Shown piece after piece: positions 301-37,053 of a stretch of 64,000 nt of DNA. Source of the DNA: the human T2T-CHM13v2.0 reference genome, Homo sapiens; the NCBI RefSeq assembly GCF_009914755.1, contig NC_060928.1, one strand, 5' to 3'. The position numbers and the translations under genes are program-made. The notes beneath the pieces are model-generated. The model was not told the origin of the DNA. It was given only the letters and a program-made list of their open reading frames with translations, and did no database searches. Position 1 is the first letter of the stretch; each line of letters starts with the position of its first letter.

Positions 301-609
301 TCTTTTTTTTTTTTTTTTTTTTTTTTGGAGAGAGTCTCGCTCTGTCGCTCAGGCTGGAATGCAGTGGTGTGATCTCAGCTCCCCACTGTAACCTCTGCTT
401 CCCAAGTTCAAGTGACTCTCTTGCCTCAGCCTCCTGAGTAGCTGGGATTACAGGCACGCATCACCAGGCCCAGCTAATTTTTCTATTTTTTGTAGAGACA
501 GGGTTTCACCATGTTGACCATGCTGGTGTCGAACTCCTGACTTCAAGTGATCCACCTGCCTCGGCCTCCCAAAGTGCTGGTATTACAGGTGTGAGCCAAC
601 ATGCCTGGC
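301..609 (-). mobile_element. Alu SINE (AluS-like), full length
   Basis: Poly-T followed by reverse-complement Alu consensus (gagtctcgctctgtcgctcaggctgg ... cctcccaaagtgctgg ... gtgagcca). Imperfect TSD gaggacattcattctt / gagggctttcattctt. Confidence 0.93.
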
Positions 610-808
610 AGAGGGCTTTCATTCTTCATGGACTGCTCCATAGCCTCAGAGACAGTCGGACTGGTTTCTTCAACCAGAGCGGAGCAGACAGGCAATTTCT
701 GTATCCACCAGGACAAATATTAGCCCAACTCTTCAATGTACAGAGAGCATCACATTTCTTATATACTAGAATATCTGTTGGTCTAAAATATAAATAAATA
801 GTATTGTA

Positions 809-1117
809 GCCAGCCACAGTGGCTCACACCTATAATTGCAGAGATTTGTGGGGCTGAGGCAGGAGGTTCACTTGAGGTCAAGTGTTCGAGACCACCCTGG
901 GCAACATAGCGAGACAACCCCCCCCCCCCACCGCCACCTGCCATCTCTACAAAAATTAAAATAATTAGCTGGGCATAGTAGTGTGGGCCTGTAGTCCCAA
1001 CTACTTGGGAAACTGATGTGGGTGGATTGCTTGAGCCCAGGAATCTGAGGCTGCAGTGGGCTATGACTGCATCACTGTACTCCAGCTAGACCTTGTCTCA
1101 AAAAAAAAAAAAAAAAA
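809..1117 (+). mobile_element. Alu SINE (old, AluJ-like) with internal poly-C tract
   Basis: gtggctcacacctataat ... ttgagcccagga ... ccttgtctc followed by a poly-A tail. C-run at about 918-929. Confidence 0.88.
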
Positions 1118-1269
1118 GTGTGCAATTGACATTACTTTATCATTTGAAAAGAGGGACAGACAAGAAAGGTATTTGGCATTTACCAAGCAATTACTCATAA
1201 TCCTCATCCCATCCTACCCCCACCCTTCCCCTAAAAATGTATGTATATGTTTGTATACCATAAAACATA

Positions 1270-1500
1270 CATCTATTTGGCTCTGGAACCAGATTGCTTG
1301 GGTTCAATTACCTGATCTAGCATTTGCTCCTGATGACTCAGTGCAGAAAAGCTCTGTAACTCAGTTTCCCCAGCTGTAAAATGGGGAATGGCGCCTTTAC
1401 TGGGCTGCCATGAGGGTAAAGGGGGTAACATATATTTATAAAGCATTCAGAACAATTCATGATACACAGTAAGCTCTATATATTTGAGCTTATTATTACT
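1270..1500 (+). mobile_element. MIR SINE fragment
   Basis: MIR core-like ctcagtttccccagctgtaaaatgggga and 3' part (aagcattcagaaca ... cagtaagctct ... ttattattact). Boundaries approximate. Confidence 0.7.
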
Positions 1501-1704
1501 GTCAGTACGATTATCATCATTTTGCTGTTTCCAATGGGTACATTTTCTACATTCTCTTTCTTAAAGACCTTTAAGTCCTTGGTATTCTCTCCACCACCAC
1601 AGAGGGCAGTGTCCTTGTAGTTTAAATTTTCAAAGACTTCATGGATCCAATAAGCACGACATTAACTAAGGGACAGTTTTCTTTCAGTGGATTGGAATCT
1701 AAAA

Positions 1705-1824
1705 TGGCTTTTTTATTGTTATTATTGGCCAGGCTGGTCTCGAACTCCTGACTTCAAGTGATTCCCCCCACCTCACCCTCCCAAAGTGTGCTGAGACTCC
1801 AGGCATGAGCCACCATGCACGGCC
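1705..1824 (-). mobile_element. Alu left-arm fragment
   Basis: ttggccaggctggtctcgaactcctgac ... cctcccaaagtg ... ggcatgagccacc. Confidence 0.8.
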
Positions 1825-1985
1825 TTCATTCTCTTCTTTTATAAGGACACCAGTCATTGCATCTGCCCCCTCACCAGCAGCCCCCAATCCAGGATGACTC
1901 ATCGTTACTTGATTACATCTAGAAAGACCCTATTTCCAAATAAGGTCACATTCCTGGGTACCGAGGATTAAGATTTCCAATTTTT
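1825..1985 (-). mobile_element. MaLR LTR fragment (MLT1-like)
   Basis: Resembles MLT1 LTR from recall: cttcttttataaggacaccagtcattg ... ttgattacatct ... agaccctatttccaaataaggtcacattc. Confidence 0.6.
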
Positions 1986-1996
1986 AACCTGACTCA

Positions 1997-2299
1997 TTTT
2001 TTTTTTTTTTTTTTTGAGTCAGCGCCTCACCCTGTCATCCAGGCTGGAGTACAGTTATGTGATTATAGCTCACTGCAGCCTCAAACTCCTGGGCTCAAGG
2101 GATCCCCTGACCTCAGCCTTCCAAGTGGCTGAGACTACAGGTGCACACCATCATGCCCAACTAATTTTTTTTGTTTTTTTGTGTGTTTTTTTTTGTACAG
2201 GTTAGGTCTCACTCTGTTGACCAGGCTGGTCTGACCTCAAGAGATTCTCTTGCCTTGGCCTCCCAAGGCACTGGGATTACAGGCGTTATCCCATGCCTG
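1997..2299 (-). mobile_element. Alu SINE (AluJ-like)
   Basis: Poly-T, then caggctggagtacagt ... gctcactgcagcctcaaactcctgggctcaag (J-type diagnostic) ... gcctcccaa ... gggattacaggc. Confidence 0.87.
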
Positions 2300-2961
2300 A
2301 CCCTCTTTCTACACCTCAATCATTGTATCATTAGCCTGAGCTGCCCATATTCCTTATTCTGCCCATCCCTGACCAACCTCCTCCTTTAACATAACTTCCA
2401 TCTCGATATCATGGGGCCTGCTGGGCACTGCAAACAGCCTAAGGAAAGTGGAAACTTTACTTAACCTTAAATTGTATTACAAAGCCCACATTGAACGTAA
2501 TTTATATTTAAACTATAAAAATTTTCTGTAAATTGAAACATGACCTATAAAGGTCTCTACACCCTGAAGCAACGTTTTAGAAAGAAATCAATTGGTCCTT
2601 TTCTGCAGAAACCATTAACCATAGGAGAGATAAAGGAAAAACTTCAATGTACTGATTGAACTTCCATGCCCATAAGTTAACTTCTAAAAGGCAACCATTC
2701 CATATTGTTAAACTGCCTTAGGTTGTTATTACTGTTATGAAAGAGATCTTCAAAGCCAGAAGTTGAATCTTGACTGTAGTTCTTGCACGTACACGCACAC
2801 TCTTGCAACTGAAACCACTCAGATTGTCCTAATGCTGCTCCCCATAGCAACACCACCTGGAATTTTACGTTTGGTTTTAAGCATCAGTCATAATCTTCAC
2901 TTGCACCCGAACACACCGCACCTGTGAGAGCCACGTGATATTAAAAAAATCCCTTTAGTGA

Positions 2962-3255
<294 letters not shown>

Positions 3256-3310
3256 TCAGTGCCTTGATCCTTCCAGATTCAGATCCAAGAGAGATGACAT
3301 TTGTCCATCA

Positions 3311-3667
<357 letters not shown>

Positions 3668-4699
3668 TCAGCTCTGTGGTCCGCTAGCGTCCTTCCTCAA
3701 TCTGCTTCCAATCTGTGGACTCAAGAAAGACTGAACCAACCTAGATTAATATTTTAGTGTAACATAATACAGTGTTACTTACTATGACATTGACCGTATA
3801 TGCCCTTTTGCTCCTTGGAGGAAAGACAATTAATAGCTATTATGTGAGTTAATAAAATAAGCCCAGGATTTATGAGTATAACTAACCTGTTCCCATTGGT
3901 CTTCCTCGTCTCCTGCAGGCAGAGAGCTGATCAAAACAGCAAAAGCAAAGCAGTGCCCCTGGCCCAGTTCTGAAGCCAATCTTCCTTAATCACCCAGACC
4001 CATCCCTGGTTAGGACTTGCTGTGGATTCTCAGGTGACTCCATCTCAGGATACAGGGACTGAGAGGGTGTATGCAACATCTCAGAGCCAGAAACCATTGA
4101 TTCTGTCTAAAAACACAGTAATAACCACATCCCATCCTCTTGATTTAAATGAAAGTGTTTGGAAGAATAAAAGATGAACCTTTTTTTTTTGTCAGATCTT
4201 GCGCTCATTTGGTTCTGGTGTGGAACAACAGCTATAAGAGAACAAGTGTATTCAATTAGAATTAATTCCCCTCTCTTATTCTCATAGCTGAGCAGGGCTT
4301 AAGTGCCTCTCATCTGAAAGAGGTAATAAGATTTTATCTGTCTCCTCATCTACCTTTTGCAAGTATACTTAACAAATTCGCTCTCGGGACTCTTCCAAAT
4401 GGAGTTTTATGAGGAATTTGCTAAGGTAAACGTTTTAGACTTTGAACACAGTTCAGATTTCAGGGGCAGTACTGAAATCTAAACTGTGTTGCTAACTGCC
4501 CTGCCTTTCAACTCAAGACACAAAAACTTTGAACTAAAATAATTATATTTTTGTTGTTTTCCACTCTGTCCCCACGTCTATATCACCACCACCCCCAATC
4601 CCACCCCGCAGGAGCTAACTCCTCCTTCCTGTCCCTGCAAGATCAAAACTCCTCCTGCAAGCCCCGCTAGCTCTGTCTGCTCACCTTCGTGGTAGATAT

Positions 4700-4870
4700 C
4701 GCTATCGTACTTTTATCCTCCTTTGTGTGATAAGTACTTCAATATCCACTTCTTCCACGAGCCCCTGAGTCCCTGAAGGGCCTGGACCACACCTAGTTTT
4801 TCTCACCGTTACATATCCCTTGTCAGGCACATGGTAGGCGCTTAAAAAGTATTTGGTGAACGAATGGCTT
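4700..4870 (+). mobile_element. L2 LINE 3'-end fragment
   Basis: ggcacatggtaggcgcttaaaaagtatttggtgaacgaatg resembles the L2 3' terminus. Boundaries approximate. Confidence 0.55.
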
Positions 4871-5039
4871 GTTTGGTGACAGTCCAAAGGCTGGGGGACA
4901 GAGGGAAAGCTCCCTCCTTTCGGGCCCCAGACGGGTGGCGCTGATGGAGAGGAGGCTAGCCTAAGTCCTCCAGGACCGAAGCATGCACCCGTAAGGCCCC
5001 TGCTAAAAAGACCTTCCTGAAGGCGGAGGAACTGCGAGA

Positions 5040-6570
5040 GTGCCTACGTTAGCCCAAGGCCTGACCCGACGATCCCAGGGACCCTCGACCTAACTGGCCC
5101 CGCCTCCCGGGCCCCAAACCCGGACTCGGCCCCCCCGAAGCTCCGGATCCTGGGGCCCGCCCCTGGCCCCGCGTCGGAAGACCATGGGCTCGCTCCTGGG
5201 CCTTCCTCAAACCCTCCGCAGGTAACGCCTCCCGAACTGGAGCCACATTCCGATCCCCTCCTCAAATCCCTCCCCGTTTCCCACACCCTGGACCCCTCGC
5301 TCCGTCTCGGCCCCGCCCCAAGCCCAGCTAGGTCTCGGCCCCCGAGCCCAGCCCCGACCGGCCTCCCAGTCCCTGGGTCCCTCCCGACACCGGCCCCTCC
5401 CTAAGCTCCGCCTCCCAGGGCCCACCTCCTGAGCGCAGCCCAGCCCGGACTCGGCCCCGCCTCCCGGACCCTGGGCCCCTCCCCACGTGGGTCCGTCCTA
5501 AGCTTCGCCTCCCGGAGTCCGCGCACCGCCTGGCCGTGTGCTACGACATAGTCAACGCCCCGCCCCTGCCCCGCCTCCTGAGCCCTTCCCTGGGTCTGGC
5601 CTTAGCCCCGCCCTAAGACCTCTCTCCTGGGCTCTGCTCTGAGTCCCGCCTCCTGAACCCAATGGCGTTTATCCCCGCCCTAATGCCCGCCTCCAGGACT
5701 CTTATCCTGCCCCCACGCAAGGCACTGCCTCCAGGACGCCACCAACCTGAACGCTTCCGAAGCCCAGCTTCCAGGATCGCCCTATCCTGGCCCCGCCCCA
5801 GGAACCGCCAACCTGGACTCTCCCCAGGACCTGCCCCAACGTCGCTTATCCTGGCCCTACCCCAGGCTTCGCCCTCATGACGTTCATCCTGGCCACACCC
5901 CAGGCCCCGCCCTCCTAACGCTCATCTTGGCCCCGCCCTAGAGTCCGCCCCCAGGACGCACCTCCTGACCGTATCCCCAGGCCCCGCCCCCTCTCTGCCC
6001 CCGCGCACTGCCCTCGGCCCGCCCCCTCTTCAGTCCAGGCCCGGCTTCCTCCAGGTCTCCAGGCAACGCTGCGGCTCCGCCCACGTCATGGCGCCCGAGG
6101 AGAACGCGGGGACAGAACTCTGGCTGCAGGGTTTCGAGCGCCGCTTCCTGGCGGCGCGCTCACTGCGCTCCTTCCCCTGGCAGGTGGCCGGCGGGGCGAG
6201 CGGAGAGGCCCGCGGGGGTCGCGGGAGTCCAGGGGCAGACGGGATGGGTCTCGGTGCTGAAACCCCTGGCGCTCCGGCCACGTGCGTTCCTGGGCTCTCC
6301 CCGGTCAGGGCCGCGAGACCCGGTCCCCGTCCCTGGGGCCTGGCCAGAGTCGCTCGCACCCCTTCTGCCCCGCGAGCTGGCGGCGGAAGCTGGGGGCGTC
6401 TCCACCGCCCTGGGGGGCAGACGCGCGTTCGGTGTGGGGCACAGTTCACGATCATTTTCACGACTTTTTAAAGGCAGTAATCGTTCTGGTCACTGGGACA
6501 CAGCTGCGCTCGCCCATTCTAAAAAGTCAGCGCCCTCAGGCCCGCGGGTAACCACCGCCTCCTGAGCGCG
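5040..6570. promoter_or_regulatory. CpG island / GC-box-rich promoter of the FAM86 paralog
   Basis: Very GC- and CpG-rich, with many ccccgccc / ccgcctcc Sp/KLF boxes. Spans the FAM86 start codon at 6088. Confidence 0.85.
6088..6183 (+). CDS. FAM86/EEF2KMT-family paralog, coding exon 1 (MAPEENAGTELWLQGFERRFLAARSLRSFPWQ)
   Basis: Near-identical to the N-terminus of EEF2KMT/FAM86B as recalled. Good Kozak context (gtcATGg) and phase-0 donor CAG|gtggcc at 6184. The specific paralog cannot be identified from sequence alone. Confidence 0.9.
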
Positions 6571-7119
6571 GTGACCAGGTCACAGGCTGTCTCTCATGCC
6601 TCAGTGTTCTCATCTGTATGTCGAGCACTGCACAGAATCGGCTCATGCGCTGAGGCTTTCACGCCTGTGATGGAAGAGACAGAGAAGGGGGTGGCCTCTC
6701 CTCTCCCTGGGGACCTGCCATTCTCAGCATAGGCATATGGCAGGCAGCAGCCTCCCTTCTGCCAGCAGAGGGGCTTAATGCACCCCGCTCCATTTGTAAT
6801 TCATGTGCAGTGAGCTCACTGGGATGAGTCAGTTTGGATATATATTCCTCCCTGTGTCTGCCCCATTTTATGGGGTGTTGCTTAATCATTTGCGTTATTG
6901 CATTGACATAAAATATTTAGCACTCAGGGATCATTTCTGGTCAGGAGAAATTTGTGCATTTTTAACCCAAAATAGAAACCTTCATAAAAGCATCATAGGT
7001 CTCCATTCAATATTGACTATAATTGTTCACATGCCCACACTGAATGCTAACTTGGGCTCACCCTCAACACCCACGAGGTGGGTACTATTATTATCACTCA
7101 CATTTGACCAGAGGGATTG

Positions 7120-7365
7120 TTTGATTAGGGTGAAGTAGTTGAGAGTTCAGACCCAGGAGACAGCCTGCCTGCTTCGAATCCTGGCCCAACCCCTGGCCCT
7201 GTGTGACCTTGGGCAAGTGACTGCATCTCTCTGTGTTATTGTTTTCTTATTAACAAAATGGGGGATATAATGATACCTACCTCTTAGGGTTGTTGTCAGC
7301 GTTGAATACAAAAGCCTGTGGATCAGTGCCTGGCTCATGGTAAATGCATGTCGGTGTTAGCTAGT
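7120..7365 (+). mobile_element. MIR SINE
   Basis: ttcgaatcctggc ... tgtgtgaccttgggcaagtgact ... aaaatgggggatataatgatacctacctc ... cagtgcctggc. Confidence 0.8.
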
Positions 7366-7379
7366 GTTTTATTCAGTCT

Positions 7380-7840
7380 CAAAATGCCTTCCGTGAGCCA
7401 GGCACCATGGATCAGCTGTACCCATGATAGATGAGGCTCTGCTTGCATGGGAGAGCCAGAGAATAAACAAATAAATGAATAAACAAGAAAAGACCAGATT
7501 AGAGTGGCTTTAAAACCAATAAAACAGGGAAATAGTGAATGGAGCAACTGGGAAAAAGTGTCACCAAAGTCAGGGAATCAGGGAAGCCTTCCCCAAAGGG
7601 GTGGCATTTGAACTGAGGCCTGAGTGGTGAAGCAGCCAGCCATGGGAAGGGTTTGGGGAACAGGATATGCAAAGGCCCTGTGGTGGAAATAAGCCAGCTG
7701 TGGTTGAGGAACAACAGCAAGGCAGCCAGTGTGGCTGGAGTGGAGTGAGCAGGGTGGGCCAGGGGTGAGGGAGAACAGGCCAGAGAGGGGGATTAGCAGC
7801 AGGTCTTGTAGGGCCTTTTATGGCATGGAAGGAGCTCTGA
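7380..7840 (-). mobile_element. L2 LINE fragment
   Basis: gccaggcacc ... catttgaactgaggcctga ... gcaaaggccctgtgg ... ccagtgtggctggagtggagtgagc resembles antisense L2. Boundaries approximate. Confidence 0.6.
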
Positions 7841-8315
7841 AGCAATGAAGTGCCTTGCCGTGTGTCACATACCAGCCGAGACAGTCTGCCTAACTCGGGA
7901 GCCAAAGCTCGCTGGTGGGCTTGAGGCCCCTGTAAGACAGCAATGTAACCCAGGCTGGAATGGGCACATTCTGCATTTCCACTTAAACTCAGATGGCAAG
8001 CCCATCAAACCTTGGTGCCATGGCTGCCCTGGTAATTCCTGGCTGACCAGTGTAACCAGGGAGCTGGCCCATGACCTGGGTGGCAACTGAGTAGCCAGGA
8101 CTAATGCGGCCAAGAGTCAGCCTTCTTCCTGTGACTCATCCAGGTGCACTCTGCGACATCTGAAGGTCAGGCTTTCAGCCGCTGTGGCTTCCACTTCCAA
8201 CTGGCTCCACGTCCCCAGGGAGGGATCACATAGAGCTTTGCCAACACATTCTATTGCGTGTTTTAATGTTCCTGTGAATGTGCCCTTGAGATTTCTCTCT
8301 CTCCCATCCACACAG

Positions 8316-8378
8316 AGCTTAGAGGCAAAGTTAAGAGACTCATCAGATTCTGAGCTGCTGCGGGATATTTTGCAGAAG
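8316..8378 (+). CDS. FAM86/EEF2KMT-family paralog, coding exon 2 (SLEAKLRDSSDSELLRDILQK)
   Basis: Pyrimidine tract plus cacag acceptor, 63-nt phase-0 exon, strong donor AAG|gtaaga. Peptide matches FAM86 residues 33-53. No further FAM86 exon is seen in the window. Confidence 0.9.
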
Positions 8379-9235
8379 GTAAGAATCCCAGAGTCCCTGG
8401 GACTCATGACCCTGCCGCCTGAATCTCTCCGGAAGACCTGAAAGAAGCAGCACTGGTGTGCTTGTACCCTTTAAAAACAGCCCTCTTCAAAGAACAAAAC
8501 CATTGAGTCAGCACTGCAGGAGGGTGTCAGCACCTCCCACAGCTCCTGCGCTTTCGTTTTCTATCTAAGACTTAGACAAAGACATCAGAATACACAAAAA
8601 TCTGCAAGAGGGGGGAAATCTAGGGAATGTTTTTTAAACCATCCACAGCAAAAACAGAGATGACAGGTGCAAAACAGCTTCTAGCATTGGGTAGATGCTC
8701 AGAGACTTTCTTTTTTGCATTTATGAGGCCTGTCCCGCCCACTCCTGTCTCTTCTAGACCTAAATGGGCCCTTGCTTTGCCCAGGGTAGGGTTTGGACTC
8801 AAGTGCATCTGCATGCAGGTGAGAGCCAGGATCACCACCCGGCCCAGCCACAGGCTGACCTTGGCCTTGAGGGCCAAGTGCAGATCACCCTGCATCCTGG
8901 GTCTTCACCTTCGAAGGGCCATGAGCCCTTCTGAAAAGACAAAGCAATAGACTACCTCCCAGAAAGAAGTGCACCAGAAGAATACATTTTCCATACAAAC
9001 TCAGGGGAGGCAGACATCCTCCACCCTCACCCACCCAGCCCAATCCTAGGAGCCCCGGGGAAGAATTCCTGTGCTAGAGGTGAATCAAGATTATCCACGT
9101 GGAAAAGATGCAGCCACAGCAGGGAAGACTTTGGGGCAATAGAGTAGGTCAGGGCTTCGAGCATGGAGATACCTGAAGTTATCTCGCACCTTGCTCTGAG
9201 TTTCACCCTGAGCCTCACTCACTCAAACTCTGAGC

Positions 9236-10148
9236 CCAGGCAGCTCAGAGTGTCCAGCAAGCTTTGGAACAGTTGGTGAAGCCCGAAGAACTCAATGGAG
9301 AGAATGCCTATCATTGTGGTGTTTGTCTCCAGAGGGCGCCGGCCTCCAAGACGTTAACTTTACACACTTCTGCCAAGGTCCTCATCCTTGTATTGAAGAG
9401 ATTCTCCGATGTCACAGGCAACAAGATTGCCAAGAATGTGCAATATCCTGAGTGCCTTGACATGCAGCCATACATGTCTCAGCAGAACACAGGACCTCTT
9501 GTCTATGTCCTCTATGCTGTGCTGGTCCACGCTGGGTGGAGTTGTCACAACGGACATTACTTCTCTTATGTCAAAGCTCAAGAAGGCCAGTGGTATAAAA
9601 TGGATGATGCCGAGGTCACCGCCTCTAGCATCACTTCTGTCCTGACTCAACAGGCCTACGTCCTCTTTTACATCCAGAAGAGTGAATGGGAAAGACACAG
9701 TGAGAGTGTGTCAAGAGGCAGGGAACCAAGAGCCCTTGGCGCAGAAGACACAGACAGGCGAGCAACGCAAGGAGAGCTCAAGAGAGACCACCCCTGCCTC
9801 CAGGCCCCAGAGGTGGACGAGCACTTGGTGGAAAGAGCCACTCAGGAAAGCACCTTAGACCACTGGAAATTCCTTCAAGAGCAAAACAAAACGAAGCCTG
9901 AGTTCAACGTCAGAAAAGTCGAAGGTACCCTGCCTCCCGACGTACTTGTGATTCATCAATCAAAATACAAGTGTGGGATGAAGAACCATCATCCTGAACA
10001 GCAAAGCTCCCTGCTAAACCTCTCTTCGACGACCCCGACACATCAGGAGTCCATGAACACTGGCACACTCGCTTCCCTGCGAGGGAGGGCCAGGAGATCC
10101 AAAGGGAAGAACAAACACAGCAAGAGGGCTCTGCTTGTGTGCCAGTGA
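9236..10148 (+). pseudogene. 5'-truncated USP17L copy (codons 228-530); lacks promoter, ATG and Cys89 box
   Basis: Identity to the array unit starts at ccaggcagctcagag (9236, equivalent to 13985 in the next unit). Upstream sequence is FAM86 intron. Frame stays open to TGA at 10148. Confidence 0.92.
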
Positions 10149-10181
10149 TCTCAGTGGAAGTACCGACCCACACGTAGGGGT

Positions 10182-10272
10182 GCACACACACACGCACACA
10201 CACAGACACACACATAACTACACCCAGAAGCGCGCACGCAAACACACACACACCCACACAAACACGAACACC
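10182..10272 (+). repeat. Interrupted (CA)n tract just 3' of the USP17L stop (recurs in every unit)
   Basis: gcacacacacacgcacacacacagacacacacataactacac ... Confidence 0.85.
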
Positions 10273-10875
10273 GTCAATCCTACATAAACTAATGAGGAGC
10301 CCAAGTTTCTGTCTCTACAACAGGGACAACTGGATAGTGATGGCTACATCTCAGGATGAGCCCGCATATGGGAAACATCAAGTTTTGGGGTCGTGAGTCT
10401 TCCGAACCTCTGGAGGGACTGTCTGAGTGTTTGTGTTCATGATAGGTGACATTCAGTGTGTATTTCTGAATATGACCTACCGACGTGTAGGTTTGCGTGT
10501 GAGGTAATTGCAGGGGACTCGGTTTCGTATTTTCTCTTGGGGTGTGTTTCATTCGTCAGTTGTTGGTCGGCATGAGAAGGTGAAATGCGGCTCATGTGGG
10601 ACATCCGTGGATCATTCTCGCCACCTTGAATAGTGGAAACTGGAATGCATTTGGAAGAGAAGAACGGTGCTCTTCTTTCTTCCCCGGGCTCGCCGTTTTT
10701 ACACTGGTTCCTGAATGGACCTCAGGCGCCCTGGGACTTGTGCTCTTGCTGGAACCCACATAACGCCGGAAGCGGACAGACCGACTTGCCTGTTTCACGG
10801 TGCCCGCTTCCCATGAGTCGAAACGGAAAATTTTCCCACGGGCATGTAAGTCATCTGGAAGTAAGCTGTATTGAT

Positions 10876-10922
10876 AATAAAGGAAAGCAAACACAGGAGT
10901 GTGTGTATTCAACTGAAATAAA
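10876..10922 (+). terminator. Two AATAAA hexamers, candidate USP17L polyadenylation signals (recur in every unit)
   Basis: AATAAA at 10876-10881 and 10917-10922, about 730-770 nt after the stop, each followed by a GT-rich stretch (gagtgtgtgtatt; gggtgtgttt). Confidence 0.5.
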
Positions 10923-12826
10923 TTCAGAAAGCCCTGAAATCAATCTCACTGGGTGTGTTTAAAAATGGCATTTGGGGAATTTCTGGGTCATTTGTCCAGC
11001 TGCGAAAGCTGCATCTCTGAAGCACAGTCCCTGTCCCGCAGTGAGACTTATTGATCCGACGTGGTGTTTCCGTGGAAATGATTGTGGGAAATGGCCCCTT
11101 CCTTTTCTCTATTTGCTGATTAGACTTCATGGTCCCTTTCTCGTCAGGTACAGTGATCAAAGTTGACCAACCCCAGAGGAAAGCTGCCCAGGGCAAAACT
11201 CAGGGCTCCGTAGAACCACAGAATCTTGGGCGCAACCCTGCTCAAGCACCCAAATGTGCATACGAACAGGGTCTCCGTGTGACGTGTGTGAAAACTACAG
11301 TGTGATGAGCATGACTGGCAGACAGCTTATCGATTGGGCTCCCCTCAAAATCGGTTATGAGCATTCAAGCCCACCGATGCCCAGGTCCCGGCTGCAGGAA
11401 TAAGACCCTCCATGGTCTTGTGTGAAGCCTCGGCATCTGCATTGCTCATGCTTCTGGGGATCATTCTCCTGAAAATGGTGGCTCCTTTCTCCCTGTGGAG
11501 CATCTTTCTAAGCAGTGCTCTTTTCTTCCCCCAGGACACTTTACATCCGGCACAGGAAGCCTTCTGATGGAGCACACCTGGCCCATGAAAAGACAAGGGA
11601 AAGAAACGGGGCCAAAGGTCACAGTCCTCTCATCCCATCATCCTCCTTAAAATCATCCTAATTTCATGGGCCCTGAAGCCAGGGCTGTTTCTCTACACCT
11701 AGAGGCCTTGGCGCCGGGCCTCAATTCCGCCCTGTTCCTTACCGTCTAAGACATGTTGGGAAAATCCCTAGAGCCAGGATCTTCATTCCTGCTAAGCCAG
11801 ACAGCCGGAAGACACACCCAAATTCTGTCCCTCTTACTTCAGGGAACATGTCCACTTTCGGCAGCATTACAATTTTGGCACCAAATGAGCTAACTGCAAT
11901 TCCACCATACAATGCGTAACTGGAAATGGAGAACACATCTCCGATCCTGAACGATCGATGCGAGAATCCAGGATATGCACGGCTTATTTTGGCCTTTTCC
12001 CACTGAAACAAGGGCCAGTATTAAAAATGGCACGCTATCCTCTGTTTCACTCCCTGCTTTTAAACGTCTCCGATGTTTCTCCCTGAGACAGGGCCTCACT
12101 TCCGTCAGCCGGGCATTTCTACGGTATAATTTTCCTTGTTTGCTTTTGTCCAAATTAGAACTTTTTATTTCATCTCTAGGAAACGTTGATCCATTATCAC
12201 ATACGTATGGAAATATTATCACACATGCTGTGAGATACGTTGTTTTTATTTTCATCAATTCTTTAATAAACAAAAGGTTATAGCTGGGATACCTTCTGAG
12301 TTCTCAAGTTTTTTGTTTCGTGTTTTCTTAAACTGCCGTCGCACGTCCGAAACCGCTCACTATGCAGTGTCATGACCGTCTCTCTTTTCTGGCAAACATA
12401 AATTTGGGGATTGTCATCAATTAGTCTCTCGGGGATTGCATGATTTCCCCAAAGGCTTTCACAGTCTACTTTGTGCACTGAGTATCTCTTCAAACTTCAG
12501 TGCACGTTTCTACCATTTGATGCTTTATTATTTGGCAATCTAGCTTCCACAAGAGCATTTCATGCAAAGACTTGTCTTGTTCTCCACTGGCAGGTAATTT
12601 CACTCGGACAGATAATCAATAGGCTCAACGTGGAAAGGTTTTCGCTGGAAGGTCTGTTTGATTCCACGGATCTCTCCTTTCTCATTAGGGAAGAAAATAC
12701 GCTGTGCTAAATACTATACTTCATTGACTATTCTCAGGTCAGAAAGCGCACTTTCGACTTCTTGTCCTTCCGTCGCTGAGAGGATGATGGCAGCTGCCAA
12801 AAGTACATACTTGGAAGTTCATCCCA

Positions 12827-12900
12827 GCACAAACACACACAGACACACGCCCCCCCCAAACACACACACACAAACACACTCACACACACACACGCACACG
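12827..12900 (+). repeat. Compound (CA)n-poly(C)-(CA)n microsatellite about 430 bp upstream of the USP17L ATG (recurs in every unit)
   Basis: acacacacagacacacgccccccccaaacacacacacac ... Length and structure vary between units. Confidence 0.88.
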
Positions 12901-13099
12901 GTTTCCTAGGTAAAAATTTCTTCCCTGCCATTGCTTTACCTAAAATAAGGCAATTGTGAGGCCACTGTCCCAACCCGGTTACACTCCTATTATATGTGCC
13001 TATCATCCTGAGGAGTAATTTGATTGAGGTGTTCTGGAAGTCATGCTGTGGGCTGTGTCTGTTGAATTCCCAGCGATGCCAGGGGACACACCCTGTGAC

Positions 13100-13230
13100 T
13101 CCTTCCTGAATTGAGTGCTGATATTTGATTGGCTTATCGCGCACCTGATGAGTGGGTGGGGTGTTCGCGGTTGGTGGGGGTGACTTACAGAAGGGCTGAT
13201 GCGGCCAGAGAGCTCGTCATTTGAAGACTC
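13100..13230 (+). promoter_or_regulatory. Putative USP17L proximal promoter (inverted CCAAT box, GT/CACCC boxes); recurs per unit
   Basis: tgattggct (AGCCAATCA on the - strand) at 13126-13134, gggtggggt and ggtggggg boxes, and a local CpG cluster 80-200 bp upstream of the ATG. Confidence 0.5.
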
Positions 13231-13304
13231 TCTCGGAAGGGATAGCGTCTTTCTGCAACCTGCGGTCCCAGCAGACAAACCTTGTGATCCTCGTTCCAGT
13301 CGAC

Positions 13305-14897
13305 ATGGAGGACGACTCACTCTACTTGGGAGGTGAGTGGCAGTTCAACCACTTTTCAAAACTCACATCTTCTCGGCCAGATGCAGCTTTTGCTGAAATC
13401 CAGCGGACTTCTCTCCCTGAGAAGTCACCACTCTCATGTGAGACCCGTGTCGACCTCTGTGATGATTTGGCTCCTGTGGCAAGACAGCTTGCTCCCAGGG
13501 AGAAGCTTCCTCTGAGTAGCAGGAGACCTGCTGCGGTGGGGGCTGGGCTCCAGAATATGGGAAATACCTGCTACGTGAACGCTTCCTTGCAGTGCCTGAC
13601 ATACACACCGCCCCTTGCCAACTACATGCTGTCCCGGGAGCACTCTCAAACGTGTCATCGTCACAAGGGCTGCATGCTCTGTACTATGCAAGCTCACATC
13701 ACACGGGCCCTCCACAATCCTGGCCACGTCATCCAGCCCTCACAGGCTTTGGCTGCTGGCTTCCATAGAGGCAAGCAGGAAGATGCCCATGAATTTCTCA
13801 TGTTCACTGTGGATGCCATGAAAAAGGCATGCCTTCCCGGGCACAAGCAGGCGGATCATCACTCTAAGGACACCACCCTCATCCACCAAATATTTGGAGG
13901 CTACTGGAGATCTCAAATCAAGTGTCTCCACTGCCACGGCATTTCAGACACTTTTGACCCTTACCTGGACATCGCCCTGGATATCCAGGCAGCTCAGAGT
14001 GTCCAGCAAGCTTTGGAACAGTTGGTGAAGCCCGAAGAACTCAATGGAGAGAATGCCTATCATTGTGGTGTTTGTCTCCAGAGGGCGCCGGCCTCCAAGA
14101 CGTTAACTTTACACACTTCTGCCAAGGTCCTCATCCTTGTATTGAAGAGATTCTCCGATGTCACAGGCAACAAGATTGCCAAGAATGTGCAATATCCTGA
14201 GTGCCTTGACATGCAGCCATACATGTCTCAGCAGAACACAGGACCTCTTGTCTATGTCCTCTATGCTGTGCTGGTCCACGCTGGGTGGAGTTGTCACAAC
14301 GGACATTACTTCTCTTATGTCAAAGCTCAAGAAGGCCAGTGGTATAAAATGGATGATGCCGAGGTCACCGCCTCTAGCATCACTTCTGTCCTGACTCAAC
14401 AGGCCTACGTCCTCTTTTACATCCAGAAGACTGAATGGGAAAGACACAGTGAGAGTGTGTCAAGAGGCAGGGAACCAAGAGCCCTTGGCGCAGAAGACAC
14501 AGACAGGCGAGCAACGCAAGGAGAGCTCAAGAGAGACTACCCCTGCCTCCAGGCCCCCGAGTTGGACGAGCACTTGGTGGAAAGAGCCACTCAGGAAAGC
14601 ACCTTAGACCACTGGAAATTCCTTCAAGAGCAAAACAAAACGAAGCCTGAGTTCAACGTCAGAAAAGTCGAAGGTACCCTGCCTCCCGACGTACTTGTGA
14701 TTCATCAATCAAAATACAAGTGTGGGATGAAGAACCATCATCCTGAACAGCAAAGCTCCCTGCTAAACCTCTCTTCGACGACCCCGACACATCAGGAGTC
14801 CATGAACACTGGCACACTCGCTTCCCTGCGAGGGAGGGCCAGGAGATCCAAAGGGAAGAACAAACACAGCAAGAGGGCTCTGCTTGTGTGCCAGTGA
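13305..14897 (+). CDS. USP17L: Ubiquitin-specific peptidase 17-like protein, 530 aa, intact (A183, T364, T376, Y412)
   Basis: [12 protein letters not shown] start, Cys box [17 protein letters not shown] (C89), QEDAHEFL, His box HNGHY (H334), KMDD (D350/351). Intronless. Confidence 0.95.
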
Positions 14898-17800
14898 TCT
14901 CAGTGGAAGTACCGACCCACACGTAGGGGTGCACACACACACGCACACACACAGACACACACATAACTACACCCAGAAGCGCGCACGCAAACACACACAC
15001 ACCCACACAAACACGAACACCGTCAATCCTACATAAACTAATGAGGAGCCCAAGTTTCTGTCTCTACAACAGGGACAACTGGATAGTGATGGCTACATCT
15101 CAGGATGAGCCCGCATATGGGAAACATCAAGTTTTGGGGTCGTGAGTCTTCCGAACCTCTGGTGGGACTGTCTGAGTGTTTGTGTTCATGATAGGTGACA
15201 TTCAGTGTGTATTTCTGAATATGACCTACCGACGTGTAGGTTTGCGTGTGAGGTAATTGCAGGGGACTCGGTTTCGTATTTTCTCTTGGGGTGTGTTTCA
15301 TTCGTCAGTTGTTGGTCGGCATGAGAAGGTGAAAGGTGGCTCATGTGGGACATCCGTGGATCATTCTCGCCACCTTGAATAGTGGAAACTGGAATGCATT
15401 TGGAAGAGAAGAACGGTGCTCTTCTTTCTTCCCCGGGCTCGCCGTTTTTACACTGGTTCCTGAATGGACCTCAGGCGCCCTGGGACTTGTGCTCTTGCTG
15501 GAACCCACATAACGCCGGAAGCGGACAGACCGACTTGCCTGTTTCACGGTGCCCGCTTCCCATGAGTCGAAACGGAAAATTTTCCCACGGGCATGTAAGT
15601 CATCTGGAAGTAAGCTGTATTGATAATAAAGGAAAGCAAACACAGGAGTGTGTGTATTCAACTGAAATAAATTCAGAAAGCCCTGAAATCAATCTCACTG
15701 GGTGTGTTTAAAAATGGCATTTGGGGAATTTCTGGGTCATTTGTCCAGCTGCGAAAGCTGCATCTCTGAAGCACAGTCCCTGTCCCGCAGTGAGACTTAT
15801 TGATCCGACGTGGTGTTTCCGTGGAAATGATTGTGGGAAATGGCCCCTTCCTTTTCTCTATTTGCTGATTAGACTTCATGGTCCCTTTCTCGTCAGGTAC
15901 AGTGATCAAAGTTGACCAACCCCAGAGGAAAGCTGCCCAGGGCACAACTCAGGGCTCCGTAGAACCACAGAATCTTGGGCGCAACCCTGCTCAAGCACCC
16001 AAATGTGCATACGAACAGGGTCTCCGTGTGACGTGTGTGAAAACTACAGTGTGATGAGCATGACTGGCAGACAGCTTATCGATTGGGCTCCCCTCAAAAT
16101 CGGTTATGAGCATTCAAGCACACCGATGCCCAGGTCCCGGCTGCAGGAATAAGACCCTCCAGGGTCTTGTGTGAAGCCTCGGCATCTGCATTGCTCATGC
16201 TTCTGGGGATCATTCTCCTGAAAATGGTGGCTCCTTTCTCCCTGTGGAGCATCTTTCTAAGCAGTGCTCTTTTCTTCCCCCAGGACACTTTACATCCGGC
16301 ACAGGAAGCCTTCTGATGGAGCACACCTGGCCCATGAAAAGACAAGGGAAAGAAACGGGGCCAAAGGTCACAGTCCTCTCATCCCATCATCCTCCTTAAA
16401 ATCATCCTAATTTCATGGGCCCTGAAGCCAGGGCTGTTTCTTTACACCTAGAGGCCTTGGCGCCGGGCCTCAATTCCGCCCTGTTCCTTACCGTCTAAGA
16501 CATGTTGGGAAAATCCCTAGAGCCAGGATCTTCATTCCCGCTAAGCCAGACAGCCGGAAGACACACCCAAATTCTGTCCCTCTTACTTCAGGGAACATGT
16601 CCACTTTCGGCAGCATTACAATTTTGGCACCAAATGTGCTAACTGCAATTCCACCATACAATGCGTAACTGGAAATGGAGGCAACATCTCCGATCCTGAA
16701 CGATCGATGCGAGAATCCAGGATATGCACGGCTTATTTTGGCCTTTTCCCACTGAAACAAGGGCCAGTATTAAAAATGGCACGCTATCCTCTGTTTCACT
16801 CCCTGCTTTTAAACGTCTCCGATGTTTCTCCCTGAGACAGGGCCTCACTTCCGTCAGCCGGGCTTTTCTACGGTATAATTTTCCTTGTTTGCTTTTGTCC
16901 AAATTAGAACTTTTTATTTCATCTCTAGGAAACGTTGATCCATTATCACATACGTATGGAAATATTATCACACATGCTGTGAGATACGTTGTTTTTATTT
17001 TCATCAATTCTTTAATAAACAAAAGGTTATAGCTGGGATACCTTCTGAGTTCTCAAGTTTTTTGTTTCGTGTTTTCTTAAACTGCCGTCGCACGTCCGAA
17101 ACCGCTCACTATGCAGTGTCATGACCGTCTCTCTTTTCTGGCAAACATAAATTTGGGGATTGTCATCAATTAGTCTCTCGGGGATTGCATGATTTCCCCA
17201 AAGGCTTTCACAGTCTACTTTGTGCACTGAGTATCTCTTCAAACTTCAGTGCACGTTTCTACCATTTGATGCTTTATTATTTGGCAATCTAGCTTCCACA
17301 AGAGCATTTCATGCAAAGACTTGTCTTGTTCTCCACTGGCAGGTAATTTCACTCGGACAGATAATCAATAGGCTCAACGTGGAAAGGTTTTCGCTGGAAG
17401 GTCTGTTTGATTCCACGGATCTCTCCTTTCTCATTAGGGAAGAAAATACGCTGTGCTAAATACTATACTTCATTGACTATTCTCAGGTCAGAAAGCGCAC
17501 TTTCGACTTCTTGTCCTTCCGTCGCTGAGAGGATGATGGCAGCTGCCAAAAGTACATACTTGGAAGTTCATCCCAGCACAAACACACACACACACACGCC
17601 CCCCCCAAACACACACACACAAACACACTCACACACACACACGCACACGGTTTCCTAGGTAAAAATTTCTTCCCTGCCATTGCTTTACCTAAAATAAGGC
17701 AATTGTGAGGCCACTGTCCCAACCCGGTTACACTCCTATTATATGTGCCTATCATCCTGAGGAGTAATTTGATTGAGGTGTTCTGGAAGTCATGCTGTGG

Positions 17801-18053
17801 GCTGTGTCTGTTGAATTCCCAGCGATGCCAGGGGACACACCCTGTGACTCCTTCCTGAATTGAGTGCTGATATTTGATTGGCTTATCGCGCACCTGATGA
17901 GTGGGTGGGGTGTTCGCGGTTGGTGGGGGTGACTTACAGAAGGGCTGATGCGGCCAGAGAGCTCGTCATTTGAAGACTCTCTCGGAAGGGATAGCGTCTT
18001 TCTGCAACCTGCGGTCCCAGCAGACAAACCTTGTGATCCTCGTTCCAGTCGAC

Positions 18054-19646
18054 ATGGAGGACGACTCACTCTACTTGGGAGGTGAGTGGCAGTTCAACCA
18101 CTTTTCAAAACTCACATCTTCTCGGCCAGATGCAGCTTTTGCTGAAATCCAGCGGACTTCTCTCCCTGAGAAGTCACCACTCTCATGTGAGACCCGTGTC
18201 GACCTCTGTGATGATTTGGCTCCTGTGGCAAGACAGCTTGCTCCCAGGGAGAAGCTTCCTCTGAGTAGCAGGAGACCTGCTGCGGTGGGGGCTGGGCTCC
18301 AGAATATGGGAAATACCTGCTACGTGAACGCTTCCTTGCAGTGCCTGACATACACACCGCCCCTTGCCAACTACATGCTGTCCCGGGAGCACTCTCAAAC
18401 GTGTCATCGTCACAAGGGCTGCATGCTCTGTACTATGCAAGCTCACATCACACGGGCCCTCCACAATCCTGGCCACGTCATCCAGCCCTCACAGGCTTTG
18501 GCTGCTGGCTTCCATAGAGGCAAGCAGGAAGATGCCCATGAATTTCTCATGTTCACTGTGGATGCCATGAAAAAGGCATGCCTTCCCGGGCACAAGCAGG
18601 CGGATCATCACTCTAAGGACACCACCCTCATCCACCAAATATTTGGAGGCTACTGGAGATCTCAAATCAAGTGTCTCCACTGCCACGGCATTTCAGACAC
18701 TTTTGACCCTTACCTGGACATCGCCCTGGATATCCAGGCAGCTCAGAGTGTCCAGCAAGCTTTGGAACAGTTGGTGAAGCCCGAAGAACTCAATGGAGAG
18801 AATGCCTATCATTGTGGTGTTTGTCTCCAGAGGGCGCCGGCCTCCAAGACGTTAACTTTACACACTTCTGCCAAGGTCCTCATCCTTGTATTGAAGAGAT
18901 TCTCCGATGTCACAGGCAACAAGATTGCCAAGAATGTGCAATATCCTGAGTGCCTTGACATGCAGCCATACATGTCTCAGCAGAACACAGGACCTCTTGT
19001 CTATGTCCTCTATGCTGTGCTGGTCCACGCTGGGTGGAGTTGTCACAACGGACATTACTTCTCTTATGTCAAAGCTCAAGAAGGCCAGTGGTATAAAATG
19101 GATGATGCCGAGGTCACCGCCTCTAGCATCACTTCTGTCCTGAGTCAACAGGCCTACGTCCTCTTTTACATCCAGAAGAGTGAATGGGAAAGACACAGTG
19201 AGAGTGTGTCAAGAGGCAGGGAACCAAGAGCCCTTGGCGCAGAAGACACAGACAGGCGAGCAACGCAAGGAGAGCTCAAGAGAGACTACCCCTGCCTCCA
19301 GGCCCCCGAGTTGGACGAGCACTTGGTGGAAAGAGCCACTCAGGAAAGCACCTTAGACCACTGGAAATTCCTTCAAGAGCAAAACAAAACGAAGCCTGAG
19401 TTCAACGTCAGAAAAGTCGAAGGTACCCTGCCTCCCGACGTACTTGTGATTCATCAATCAAAATACAAGTGTGGGATGAAGAACCATCATCCTGAACAGC
19501 AAAGCTCCCTGCTAAACCTCTCTTCGACGACCCCGACACATCAGGAGTCCATGAACACTGGCACACTCGCTTCCCTGCGAGGGAGGGCCAGGAGATCCAA
19601 AGGGAAGAACAAACACAGCAAGAGGGCTCTGCTTGTGTGCCAGTGA
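18054..19646 (+). CDS. USP17L: USP17-like deubiquitinase, 530 aa, intact (A183, S364, Y412)
   Basis: Full ORF with intact catalytic triad motifs. Confidence 0.95.
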
Positions 19647-22600: not shown

Positions 22601-22803
22601 CTTCCTGAATTGAGTGCTGATATTTGATTGGCTTATCGCGCACCTGATGAGTGGGTGGGGTGTTCGCGGTTGGTGGGGGTGACTTACAGAAGGGCTGATG
22701 CGGCCAGAGAGCTCGTCATTTGAAGACTCTCTCAGAAGGGATAGCGTCTTTCTGCAACCTGCGGTCCCAGCAGACAAACCTTGTGATCCTTGTTCCAGTC
22801 GAC

Positions 22804-27300: not shown

Positions 27301-27552
27301 CTGTGTCTGTTGAATTCCCAGCGATGCCAGGGGACACACCCTGTGACTCCTTCCTGAATTGAGTGCTGATATTTGATTGGCTTATCGCGCACCTGATGAG
27401 TGGGTGGGGTGTTCGCGGTTGGTGGGGGTGACTTACAGAAGGGCTGATGCGGCCAGAGAGCTCGTCATTTGAAGACTCTCTCGGAAGGGATAGCGTCTTT
27501 CTGCAACCTGCGGTCCCAGCAGACAAACCTTGTGATCCTTGTTCCAGTCGAC

Positions 27553-32100: not shown

Positions 32101-32302
32101 TTCCTGAATTGAGTGCTGATATTTGATTGGCTTATCGCGCACCTGATGAGTGGGTGGGGTGTTCGCGGTTGGTGGGGGTGACTTACAGAAGGGCTGATGC
32201 GGCCAGAGAGCTCGTCATTTGAAGACTCTCTCGGAAGGGATAGCGTCTTTCTGCAACCTGCGGTCCCAGCAGAAAAACCTTGTGATCCTTGTTCCAGTCG
32301 AC

Positions 32303-36800: not shown

Positions 36801-37053
36801 GCTGTGTCTGTTGAATTCCCAGCGATGCAAGGGGACACACCCTGTGACTCCTTCCTGAATTGAGTGCTGATATTTCATTGGCTTATCGCGCACCTGATGA
36901 GTGGGTGGGGTGTTCGCGGTTGGTGGGGGTGACTTACAGAAGGGCTGATGCGGCCAGAGAGCTCGTCATTTGAAGACTCTCTCGGAAGGGATAGCGTCTT
37001 TCTGCAACCTGCGGTCCCAGCAGAAAAACCTTGTGATCCTTGTTCCAGTCGAC

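What the first reader, a model, noticed from the sequence alone, without database searches (positions are those of the whole stretch)
8379..9300. USP17L macrosatellite begins abruptly inside intron 2 of a FAM86 paralog, possibly an ectopic or rearranged array
Seen: unique FAM86 intronic sequence switches at single-base resolution (9236) into mid-CDS of a nearly undegraded RS447 unit, with no diverged edge unit. Established: RS447/USP17L arrays are known at 4p16.1 and 8p23.1, embedded in segmental duplications that also carry FAM86 paralogs. Inference: the sharp, young junction reflects either insertion of an array (for example via a circular intermediate opened at codon 227) or a deletion or rearrangement that fused the FAM86 5' end to the array. 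It may be polymorphic or absent from the standard reference.
Basis: partly seen in the sequence, partly recalled or inferred. Interest (0 to 1): 0.72.

Follow-up and report, generated by a model that had tools for sequence, protein, structure and literature searches.

The report
Deletion scar at USP17L array edge
The junction is real, but it is the ordinary telomere-side edge of the well-known chromosome 4 USP17L gene array, most likely left by an old deletion of about 50 kb that fused the first two exons of a FAM86 gene copy to the middle of a repeat unit.

Summary
Homology to FAM86 paralogs stops at window 9220. Fifteen orphan bases follow (9221-9235). RS447 homology then starts at 9236, unit position 681, the third base of USP17L codon 227.

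The circular-insertion idea fails. The array ends about 266 kb away at chr4:9389590, at unit position 1194 rather than 680, and FAM86 intron 2 does not resume.

The deletion alternative fits. On chr8p23.1 the same FAM86 block lies upstream of an RS447 mini-array in the same orientation. Both chr4 flanks are collinear with that chr8 block, at 3.6% and 4.0% substitutions. Chr4 has 15 bp where chr8 has at least 52.8 kb. That interval holds FAM86 exon 3 onward, the RS447 5' flank and its degenerate edge units, none found elsewhere on chr4.

"Young" is not supported. The far edge is shared with chr8, so it is old, yet it is just as sharp and undegraded. The first unit carries 13 private derived changes.

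The array is the canonical 4p16.1 one, and print already places a segmental duplication next to it (PMC3038909). Whether the junction is polymorphic could not be tested here. Interest is low.

The parts
506..9220 (+). Segmental-duplication block carrying the 5' end of a FAM86 paralog. It is collinear with chr8:7535001-7543656; the left limit is set only by how much of chr8 was fetched.
   Evidence: one HSP of 8737 columns at 95.3%; 311 substitutions in 8635 aligned bases (3.60%); 14-15 paralogous copies at 92-97%.
6032..6183 (+). FAM86 exon 1 (ATG at 6089), which is also exon 1 of the predicted lncRNA LOC124906426.
   Evidence: sequence: ATG at 6089 and a gt donor after 6183. PF14904 profile positions 3-28 at window 6109-6186, 23.1 bits. 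Exon limits come from the hub table.
8316..8378 (+). FAM86 exon 2 (SLEAKLRDSSDSELLRDILQK), with its donor gtaaga at 8379.
   Evidence: PF14904 at 18.2 bits, below the cut-off; profile positions 23-48 at window 8298-8378.
8379..9220 (+). Retained first 842 bp of FAM86 intron 2. Homology to every paralog stops at 9220.
9221..9235 (.). A 15-bp orphan filler at the breakpoint that matches neither parent sequence.
   Evidence: alignment; no copy with 2 or fewer mismatches in the window, the chr8 block or the far region, and no 8-mer or longer from 9211-9245 repeated within window 8901-9600.
9236..13304 (+). First, 5'-truncated RS447 unit (unit positions 681-4750). It keeps USP17L codons 228-530 (9237-10148) and has lost the ATG and the N-terminal half of the UCH domain.
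   Evidence: UCH profile positions 133-254 only; 13 private derived columns.
11535..12287 (+). Terminal exon of the predicted chimeric lncRNA, inside the RS447 spacer (unit positions 2980-3732). It has a polypyrimidine-AG acceptor and an AATAAA at 12266-12271.
   Evidence: Hub table. sequence; both signals are present in 28 of 28 chr4 units examined.
13305..64000 (+). Ten full RS447/USP17L units of 4747-4751 bp and the start of an eleventh. The array continues to chr4:9389590.

Best explanation
This is the fixed-looking telomere-side boundary of the canonical 4p16.1 RS447/USP17L macrosatellite. It is a deletion scar.

The ancestral layout is still seen three times on chr8p23.1, and in part on chr12. 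It runs: a FAM86 gene; about 46 kb; the RS447 5' flank; progressively degenerate RS447 edge units; full units; a partial unit ending at position 1194/1195; and the 3' flank.

The chr4 copy of this composite block lost everything from 842 bp into FAM86 intron 2 to position 680 of an interior RS447 unit. That is at least 52.8 kb by the chr8 yardstick. The ends were joined without homology, leaving 15 untemplated bases, which is the signature of end joining.

Because the cut fell inside the array, the degenerate edge units went with the deleted DNA. A former interior unit became the edge, which is why the edge looks clean. The array stands at about 55 full units plus two partial units in this genome.

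Shown here: the breakpoints, the collinearity, the missing interval and the shared far edge. Inferred: the order of events, end joining as the repair route, and an age of millions of years.

A by-product follows from the signals present. The intact FAM86 promoter and exons 1-2 can now splice into a cryptic acceptor and poly(A) site that every RS447 unit carries. This matches the predicted lncRNA LOC124906426.
For: Breakpoints.

Collinearity: window 506-9220 matches chr8:7535001-7543656. Window 9236 onward matches unit position 681 of the chr8 units, the first at chr8:7596423. Chr4:9388001-9398175 matches chr8:7604793-7615000 in a single HSP that crosses the array end. All are on the same strand. 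Chr8 therefore has 52.8 kb where chr4 has 15 bp.

Equal age of the two flanks: 3.60 +/- 0.20% and 4.02 +/- 0.21% substitutions against chr8.

Closest relatives: in a tree of 10 of the 15 full-length copies, the window's FAM86 piece sits inside the chr12 + chr8 clade (supports 0.98-0.99). Those are the copies that carry the RS447 5' flank about 46 kb downstream.

Derived state on chr4: FAM86 exon 3 and later exons are absent here and present in the other paralogs. The chr8 clusters show edge pieces of 65-69%, 77-78% and 89% identity before the full units. That edge and the 5' flank are found full-length only on chr8, plus chr12 for the flank, and never on chr4.

No spare RS447 copies: 63-67 first-look candidates are about what 56-57 chr4 array copies plus four chr8 clusters would give. 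This tally is my own arithmetic.

Age hint: 13 private derived columns in the edge unit. Four of them are unique among the 40 copies scored of 63 candidates in each.
Against: Only one human genome was examined. No ape or second human assembly was available, so neither fixation nor age is shown.

The order 'copy the composite block, then delete' is a parsimony argument. The junction could have formed during the duplication itself.

Hurle et al. 2011 (passages read) report RS447 at 4p16 in orangutan without complex mosaic duplications. That could mean RS447 reached chr4 before the FAM86 block did.

The private-variant clock is weak. The far partial unit is ancient-edged yet has only 2 private columns, so homogenisation reaches edge units.

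Search lists score at most 40 candidates, so 'absent from chr4' is strong only for high-identity copies.
Confidence: 0.68

Rival explanations
1. Independent juxtaposition. RS447 was already on 4p16, and a FAM86-bearing segmental duplication whose copied segment happened to end in intron 2 later landed at or in the array. This could also have happened by a template switch during the duplication, with loss of the array's old 5' edge and flank.
For: Hurle et al. 2011 (passages) report that orangutan has RS447 at both 4p16 and 8p23 without mosaic duplications, and that the TBSD family expanded later. The 15-bp filler is equally typical of replication-based template switching. Another FAM86 copy, on chr7, has its edge only about 85 bp away, so this part of intron 2 has been a duplication edge before.
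Against: It needs the same order and orientation of FAM86 and RS447 to arise on chr4 as on chr8 by coincidence. It also needs a second event to remove the old 5' edge and flank, which are nowhere on chr4. Both flanks diverge from chr8 by the same amount within error. The chr12 copy shows that the FAM86-to-RS447-flank stretch is duplicated as one piece.
Confidence: 0.24
2. An RS447 array was inserted into an intact FAM86 intron 2 from a circular intermediate opened at codon 227.
For: Only the abruptness of the near junction.
Against: The far end is at unit position 1194, not 680. No FAM86 sequence appears in the next 10.4 kb. No orphan 3' half of FAM86 lies by the array: the downstream intron-2 piece has 15 copies, each belonging to another paralog. 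The far junction and its flank are shared with the chr8 clusters, so they predate the chr4 array edge.
Confidence: 0.02
3. The junction is an assembly error, or a private rearrangement of this one genome.
For: Nothing here speaks for it. Raw reads could not be inspected, and macrosatellites are hard to assemble.
Against: An independent clone-based assembly (hg17) already placed a segmental duplication immediately beside RS447 (PMC3038909, section 7). The edge unit carries 13 private derived changes, which an assembly join between array copies would not create. The filler and both flanks are clean, with no N.
Confidence: 0.04

Closest known systems
RS447 / USP17L megasatellite at 4p16.1 (Kogi 1997, Gondo 1998 and Okada 2002 as cited in the papers read; Burrows 2010, PMC2874809)
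   Same: The unit is 4.75 kb, each unit holds a 1593-bp USP17 ORF, and the units lie head to tail on 4p16.1. About 55 full units falls inside the published 20-103 range.
   Different: Nothing differs about the array itself. The papers read (passages only) describe copy number and genes, not the base-level edges. Burrows 2010 has 0 occurrences of FAM86, boundary, flank, partial or truncated.
chr8p23.1 RS447 mini-clusters inside the beta-defensin repeat (Burrows 2010: blocks of 3 units)
   Same: They have the same 3' end at unit position 1194/1195 and the same 3' flank (94-95% identity). The same FAM86 block lies upstream in the same orientation.
   Different: Chr8 keeps the whole FAM86 gene, the 46-kb spacer, the RS447 5' flank and graded degenerate edge units, and has only two full units. 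Chr4 lacks all of that and has about 55 units.
TBSD-family segmental duplication flanking the 4p16 inversion ('Chr4:9', Hurle 2011 PMC3038909; Darai-Ramqvist 2008 as cited there)
   Same: It is a high-identity multi-chromosome duplication at about 9 Mb of chr4, stated to lie immediately adjacent to RS447. The paralog places found here include chr4 at about 4 Mb, chr3, chr8, chr11 and chr12.
   Different: The paper never mentions FAM86 (0 occurrences) and gives no breakpoint. That the window's block belongs to the TBSD family is my inference from position, not a test.
D4Z4 distal edge (a partial unit plus a flanking poly(A) signal that stabilises the DUX4 transcript; as summarised in PMC3018141)
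   Same: It is a macrosatellite edge where flank and edge unit together define a transcript.
   Different: Here the flank supplies the promoter and the repeat supplies the acceptor and poly(A) site. The product is a predicted non-coding chimera. No phenotype is known.

Membership tests
RS447/USP17L macrosatellite | Head-to-tail units of about 4.7 kb at high mutual identity | tested here: met
   12 consecutive hits with a period of 4747-4751 bp at 98.9-100%; 28 full or partial units over 144 kb.
RS447/USP17L macrosatellite | Each unit holds a 1593-bp ORF for a UCH-domain deubiquitinase | tested here: met
   9 of the 11 units starting in the window have a 530-aa ORF. PF00443 at E = 4.9e-58; 22 of 27 full units are open.
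RS447/USP17L macrosatellite | Location at 4p16.1 (the canonical array, not an ectopic one) | tested here: met
   Hub coordinates chr4:9.11-9.18 Mb, with USP17L10-15 next; one continuous array to chr4:9389590. The tally of candidates leaves no second chr4 array (my arithmetic).
FAM86 paralog (5' fragment) | Match to Pfam PF14904 in exon order | tested here: inconclusive
   exon 1 scores 23.1 bits (23.5 with neighbours; cut-off 23.5) and exon 2 scores 19.4 bits; exon 2 scores 18.2 bits. Exon 3, the best-scoring exon elsewhere (30-50 bits), is absent here.
FAM86 paralog (5' fragment) | DNA paralogy with loci that hold the whole gene | tested here: met
   92-97% identity to 14 loci; those loci continue into intron 2, exon 3 and exon 4. 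The name of each locus is recalled, not given by a tool.
Insertion from a circular repeat intermediate | The far end stops one base before the near start (unit position 680) and the host sequence resumes | tested here: not met
   the end is at unit position 1194; no FAM86 intron 2 follows.
Interstitial deletion joined by end joining | Both flanks collinear and co-oriented with a paralog that holds the intervening DNA | tested here: met
   the chr8 block holds 52.8 kb between the two breakpoint equivalents; the flank divergences are equal.
Interstitial deletion joined by end joining | No long homology at the joint; a short filler or microhomology | tested here: met
   a 15-bp filler with no template found. 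The near flank has no BLAST match to the unit.
Interstitial deletion joined by end joining | An ancestral undeleted state at the same locus in an outgroup | not testable with these tools
   No ape or other human assembly is held. Only paralogs within one genome were compared.
Polymorphic or reference-absent structural variant | Junction present in some haplotypes and absent in others | not testable with these tools
   A single genome only. Indirect evidence: hg17 shows a duplication next to RS447 (PMC3038909).

The most novel reading that the evidence does not exclude
The deletion is specific to humans or to African apes. By removing the degenerate 5' edge and parking an active CpG-island promoter (FAM86) 3 kb from the first unit, it changed the behaviour of the array. 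Promoter-driven transcription into the edge unit (the predicted FAM86-RS447 chimeric RNA) would set the chromatin state or the stability of the array's distal end. The junction or its private variants would mark haplotypes that differ in copy number, USP17L expression, or proneness to the 4p16 inversion and the t(4;8) translocation.
Probability: 0.06. Interest if true: 0.55.

Novelty: new member of a known kind. Interest (0 to 1): 0.2.

Why it matters
Mostly it closes a lead. The array is not ectopic, it was not inserted from a circle, and a clean edge is no sign of youth.

Three things are modestly useful:
1. The exact anatomy of both edges of a medically relevant, highly copy-variable macrosatellite. 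It sits beside the 4p16 inversion and t(4;8) breakpoint duplications. The near edge offers a unique 15-bp filler and 13 edge-unit variants that could anchor long-read assemblies or junction genotyping.
2. An internal control. Homogenisation keeps even an ancient terminal partial unit at about 99.4% identity, so edge-unit identity cannot date an array boundary.
3. A concrete origin for a predicted chimeric lncRNA.

Tried and rejected
- Tandem Repeats Finder found nothing, because its longest period is 500. I used BLAST of a unit instead.
- A whole-unit search of the genome was not scored, with too many letters. I used 62-120-base pieces instead.
- I looked for a template for the 15-bp filler and found none. 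There was no copy with 2 or fewer mismatches in the window, the chr8 block or the far region, and no 8-mer or longer from 9211-9245 repeated within window 8901-9600.
- I looked for any similarity of the near flank (window 1-9235) to the RS447 unit with sensitive BLAST and found none. So there is no hidden degenerate unit on the near side.
- I considered the chr7 5'-truncated FAM86 copy as a possible reciprocal product. I rejected it because it overlaps the window's copy by 87 bp, is only 92-94% identical, and abuts an Alu.
- I wanted all of the roughly 57 units for the edge-divergence test. Only 28 units plus the last 1.6 kb of the array were compared.
- Literature: four searches and passages of seven papers gave no base-level description of the junction. 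'RS447 + FAM86' returned three papers that, from their titles and abstracts, look unrelated; none was opened. The supplements of PMC3038909, which list duplication coordinates, were not opened and may hold the map position of this edge.

Full report
WHAT IS THERE

By the hub's note, the window is T2T-CHM13 chr4:9114001-9178000. I took one annotated unit (window 41804-46553, position 1 = the USP17L ATG) as a yardstick. BLAST finds 12 head-to-tail copies in the window. The first spans 9236-13304 and corresponds to unit positions 681-4750, at 99.19% over 4070 bp. Ten full units of 4747-4751 bp follow at 98.9-100%, and an eleventh is cut by the window end.

Left of the junction lies the 5' end of a FAM86 paralog. 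Exon 1 starts with an ATG at 6089 and ends with a gt donor after 6183. Exon 2 is 8316-8378, reads SLEAKLRDSSDSELLRDILQK and has a gtaaga donor. Searched over the whole genome, Pfam PF14904 hits exon 1 at window 6109-6186 (23.1 bits) and exon 2 at window 8298-8378 (19.4 bits). It finds no exon 3 for this copy. Exon 3 is the best-scoring exon (30-50 bits) in the other paralogs, for example at chr8:7544703, about 1 kb past the breakpoint equivalent. So 'intron 2' is right.

THE JUNCTION IN DETAIL

Window 8000-9235 has 14 other full-length copies in this genome at 92-97% identity, on chr3, chr4, chr8, chr11, chr12 and chr16, plus an 87-bp partial copy on chr7. In every one the match ends at query base 1221, which is window 9220. 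All 9 fetched paralogs confirm this.

The paralogs continue past that point as TCGTAGGTGG... and reach an Alu about 54 bp later. The window instead reads ACTCAAACTCTGAGC (9221-9235) and then the RS447 unit from CCAGGCAG (9236). The 15 bases match neither parent. No copy with 2 or fewer mismatches occurs in the window, in 80 kb of the chr8 block or in 40 kb of the far region. No 8-mer or longer from 9211-9245 recurs within window 8901-9600. The join is therefore homology-free with a short untemplated filler. It is not a single-base switch, and the intron sequence is not unique.

THE FAR END AND THE CIRCLE MODEL

Unit-spaced matches run along chr4 to 9388397. I fetched 9388001-9428000. The array ends at chr4:9389590, at unit position 1194. 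By length and period that makes about 55 full units plus a leading 4070-bp and a trailing 1194-bp partial unit, 266,355 bp in all. I examined 28 units and the last 1.6 kb directly; the middle of the array is inferred from the spaced hits. This copy number is ordinary. Published ranges are 20-103 units with a mean near 60.

A circle opened at codon 227 would end at position 680 with FAM86 intron 2 resuming. Neither holds. The next 10.4 kb share only Alu-sized 74-82% matches with the FAM86 loci. The 1150 bp of intron 2 just past the breakpoint has 15 copies, each belonging to another paralog and none beside the array.

THE FAR EDGE IS OLD, AND CHR8 SHOWS THE ANCESTRAL LAYOUT

The first 910 bp after the array have four copies on chr8 at 90-91% identity. 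I fetched two of the chr8 clusters. Each shows the following, in order:
- edge pieces matching the unit at 65-69%, then 77-78%, then 89%;
- two full units at 91-94%;
- a partial unit covering positions 1-1195;
- the same flank as on chr4.

One HSP (chr4:9388001-9398175 against chr8:7604793-7615000, 94.8%) runs straight across the array end. The far junction is therefore shared and predates the chr4/chr8 split. Both chromosomes also carry, just past it, a 63-70% relic of unit positions 2729-3389.

The RS447 5' flank on chr8 (6 kb) occurs four times on chr8 and once on chr12:8207664-8213589. It is not on chr4. The degenerate 5' edge occurs full-length only on chr8. These lists score at most 40 candidates, so this is strong only for high-identity copies.

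COLLINEARITY

On chr8 a FAM86 copy (7542441-7543656, + strand) lies upstream of an RS447 cluster (7593.5-7606.4 kb, + strand). The same order and orientation recur at chr8:12.18/12.11-12.13 Mb and at chr8:12.71/12.65-12.67 Mb. On chr12, FAM86 is followed 46 kb later by the RS447 5' flank.

I fetched chr8:7535001-7585000 and aligned it:
- window 506-9220 matches chr8:7535001-7543656 at 95.3%, the left end limited by the fetch;
- window 9236 onward matches unit position 681 of the first full chr8 unit, at chr8:7596423.

Chr8 thus holds 52.8 kb where chr4 holds 15 bp.

Substitution counts against chr8 are 311 of 8635 (3.60 +/- 0.20%) for the near flank and 345 of 8572 (4.02 +/- 0.21%) for the far flank. 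These are equal within about 1.5 standard errors.

I built a tree of 2.7 kb of the FAM86 piece from the 10 best of the 15 full-length copies. The five more distant copies (92-93%) were not fetched. It gives (chr12,(chr4 window,(chr8 x4))) with supports of 0.98-0.99. The window's copy therefore belongs to the clade whose members carry RS447 downstream.

BEST READING

The chr4 locus is a copy of the composite FAM86...RS447 block. It lost the interval from intron 2 of FAM86 to position 680 of an interior unit and was closed by end joining with a 15-bp filler.

The truncated gene and the missing degenerate edge are the derived states. One event explains both, and it also explains why the edge unit is a clean former interior unit.

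The main rival is that the FAM86 duplication arrived separately at an existing chr4 array, or that the join formed by a template switch during duplication. It is not excluded. Hurle et al. 2011 report RS447 at 4p16 in orangutan without mosaic duplications. But this rival needs a coincidence of order and orientation, plus a second loss of the old edge.

IS IT YOUNG, ECTOPIC OR UNKNOWN?

Age. Among 28 chr4 units, the edge unit has 13 private columns of 4075, against 0-6 in the other 27. All 13 differ from both chr8 units, which carry the chr4 majority base at 11 of the 13. Three of the columns (11932-11934) may be one event. Two 62-66-base probes, each holding two of these variants, match at 100% only at the edge unit. 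The other 39 scored copies of 63 candidates are at 97%. This hints at long isolation, on the order of a million years or more at usual human rates. That figure is my inference.

The clock is weak, however. The far partial unit has a demonstrably ancient boundary, yet it shows only 2 private columns in 1194, both within 9 bp of the end. The safe conclusion is therefore the negative one: an undegraded edge unit says nothing about youth.

Ectopic or canonical. The array is the canonical 4p16.1 one, by the hub coordinates and because USP17L10-15 follow.

Already in print. Hurle et al. [quoted passage not shown] They do not name FAM86 (0 occurrences).

No paper found in four searches gives the base-level junction. 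Burrows 2010 has 0 occurrences of FAM86, boundary, flank, partial or truncated. Recent pangenome and pedigree papers mention only copy-number change at this locus. Presence in GRCh38, polymorphism and read support could not be tested here.

CONSEQUENCE

RefSeq predicts the lncRNA LOC124906426, with exons at 6032-6183, 8316-8378 and 11535-12287 (hub table). The third exon lies in the spacer of the first RS447 unit. It follows a polypyrimidine-AG acceptor and ends 16 bases after an AATAAA at 12266-12271. Both signals are present in 28 of 28 units, so the FAM86 promoter would use the first one it meets. The truncated first unit keeps USP17L codons 228-530, which hold only the C-terminal half of the UCH domain (profile positions 133-254 of 254). 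It has no start codon of its own gene. No function is implied.

VERDICT

The circle model is refuted and the deletion model is favoured. The feature is an ordinary boundary of a known array beside a known duplication.

Noticed in passing
window 13305-14897, 18054-19646, 22804-24396, 27553-29145, 51302-52894: Five units carry an intact 530-aa USP17L ORF but have no row in the hub's RefSeq gene table. The table lists only six of the eleven units that start in the window. The two rows called pseudogenes fit the sequence: the unit at 37054 stops after 469 codons, and the unit at 56051 stops at codon 7 and reopens from an ATG at 56303.
   Followed up: partly
G000 chr7:7059826-7059912 (locus L035), equivalent to window 9134-9220: A second FAM86 copy is truncated on its 5' side at about window-equivalent 9134-9140. 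It abuts an antisense Alu and continues normally into intron 2 and exon 3. Two independent duplication or rearrangement edges therefore fall within about 90 bp of each other in FAM86 intron 2.
   Followed up: partly
G000 chr4:9389600-9390400 (L011:1600-2400) and chr8:7072345-7072811: Just past the shared 3' end of the array, both chromosomes keep a 63-70% identical relic of unit positions 2729-3389. It looks like an ancient degenerate unit with positions 1195-2728 missing.
   Followed up: partly
window 13305-27552 and 27553-56050: Local sub-families exist within the array. Units 1-3 differ from each other at only 3-6 columns. Units 4, 5 and 9 differ at 11-18, and units 6 and 7 at 13. Between groups the differences are 23-54. 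This suggests recent local duplications or conversions rather than uniform homogenisation.
   Followed up: no
G000 chr4:9390543-9392638 against chr8:7054974-7057035: About 2 kb of the chr4 3' flank is 80-82% identical to sequence lying just upstream of the chr8 clusters. That chr8 stretch matches many dispersed genomic copies at 84-88%, so it is probably a shared transposable element rather than a larger old repeat period.
   Followed up: no
G000 chr12:8207664-8258807: Chr12 carries FAM86 plus the 46-kb spacer and the RS447 5' flank at 95-97% identity to chr8. No match to the next 4.1 kb of the chr8 block appeared, and that stretch includes the degenerate RS447 edge. So this duplication seems to stop about 2 kb short of RS447.
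   Followed up: no
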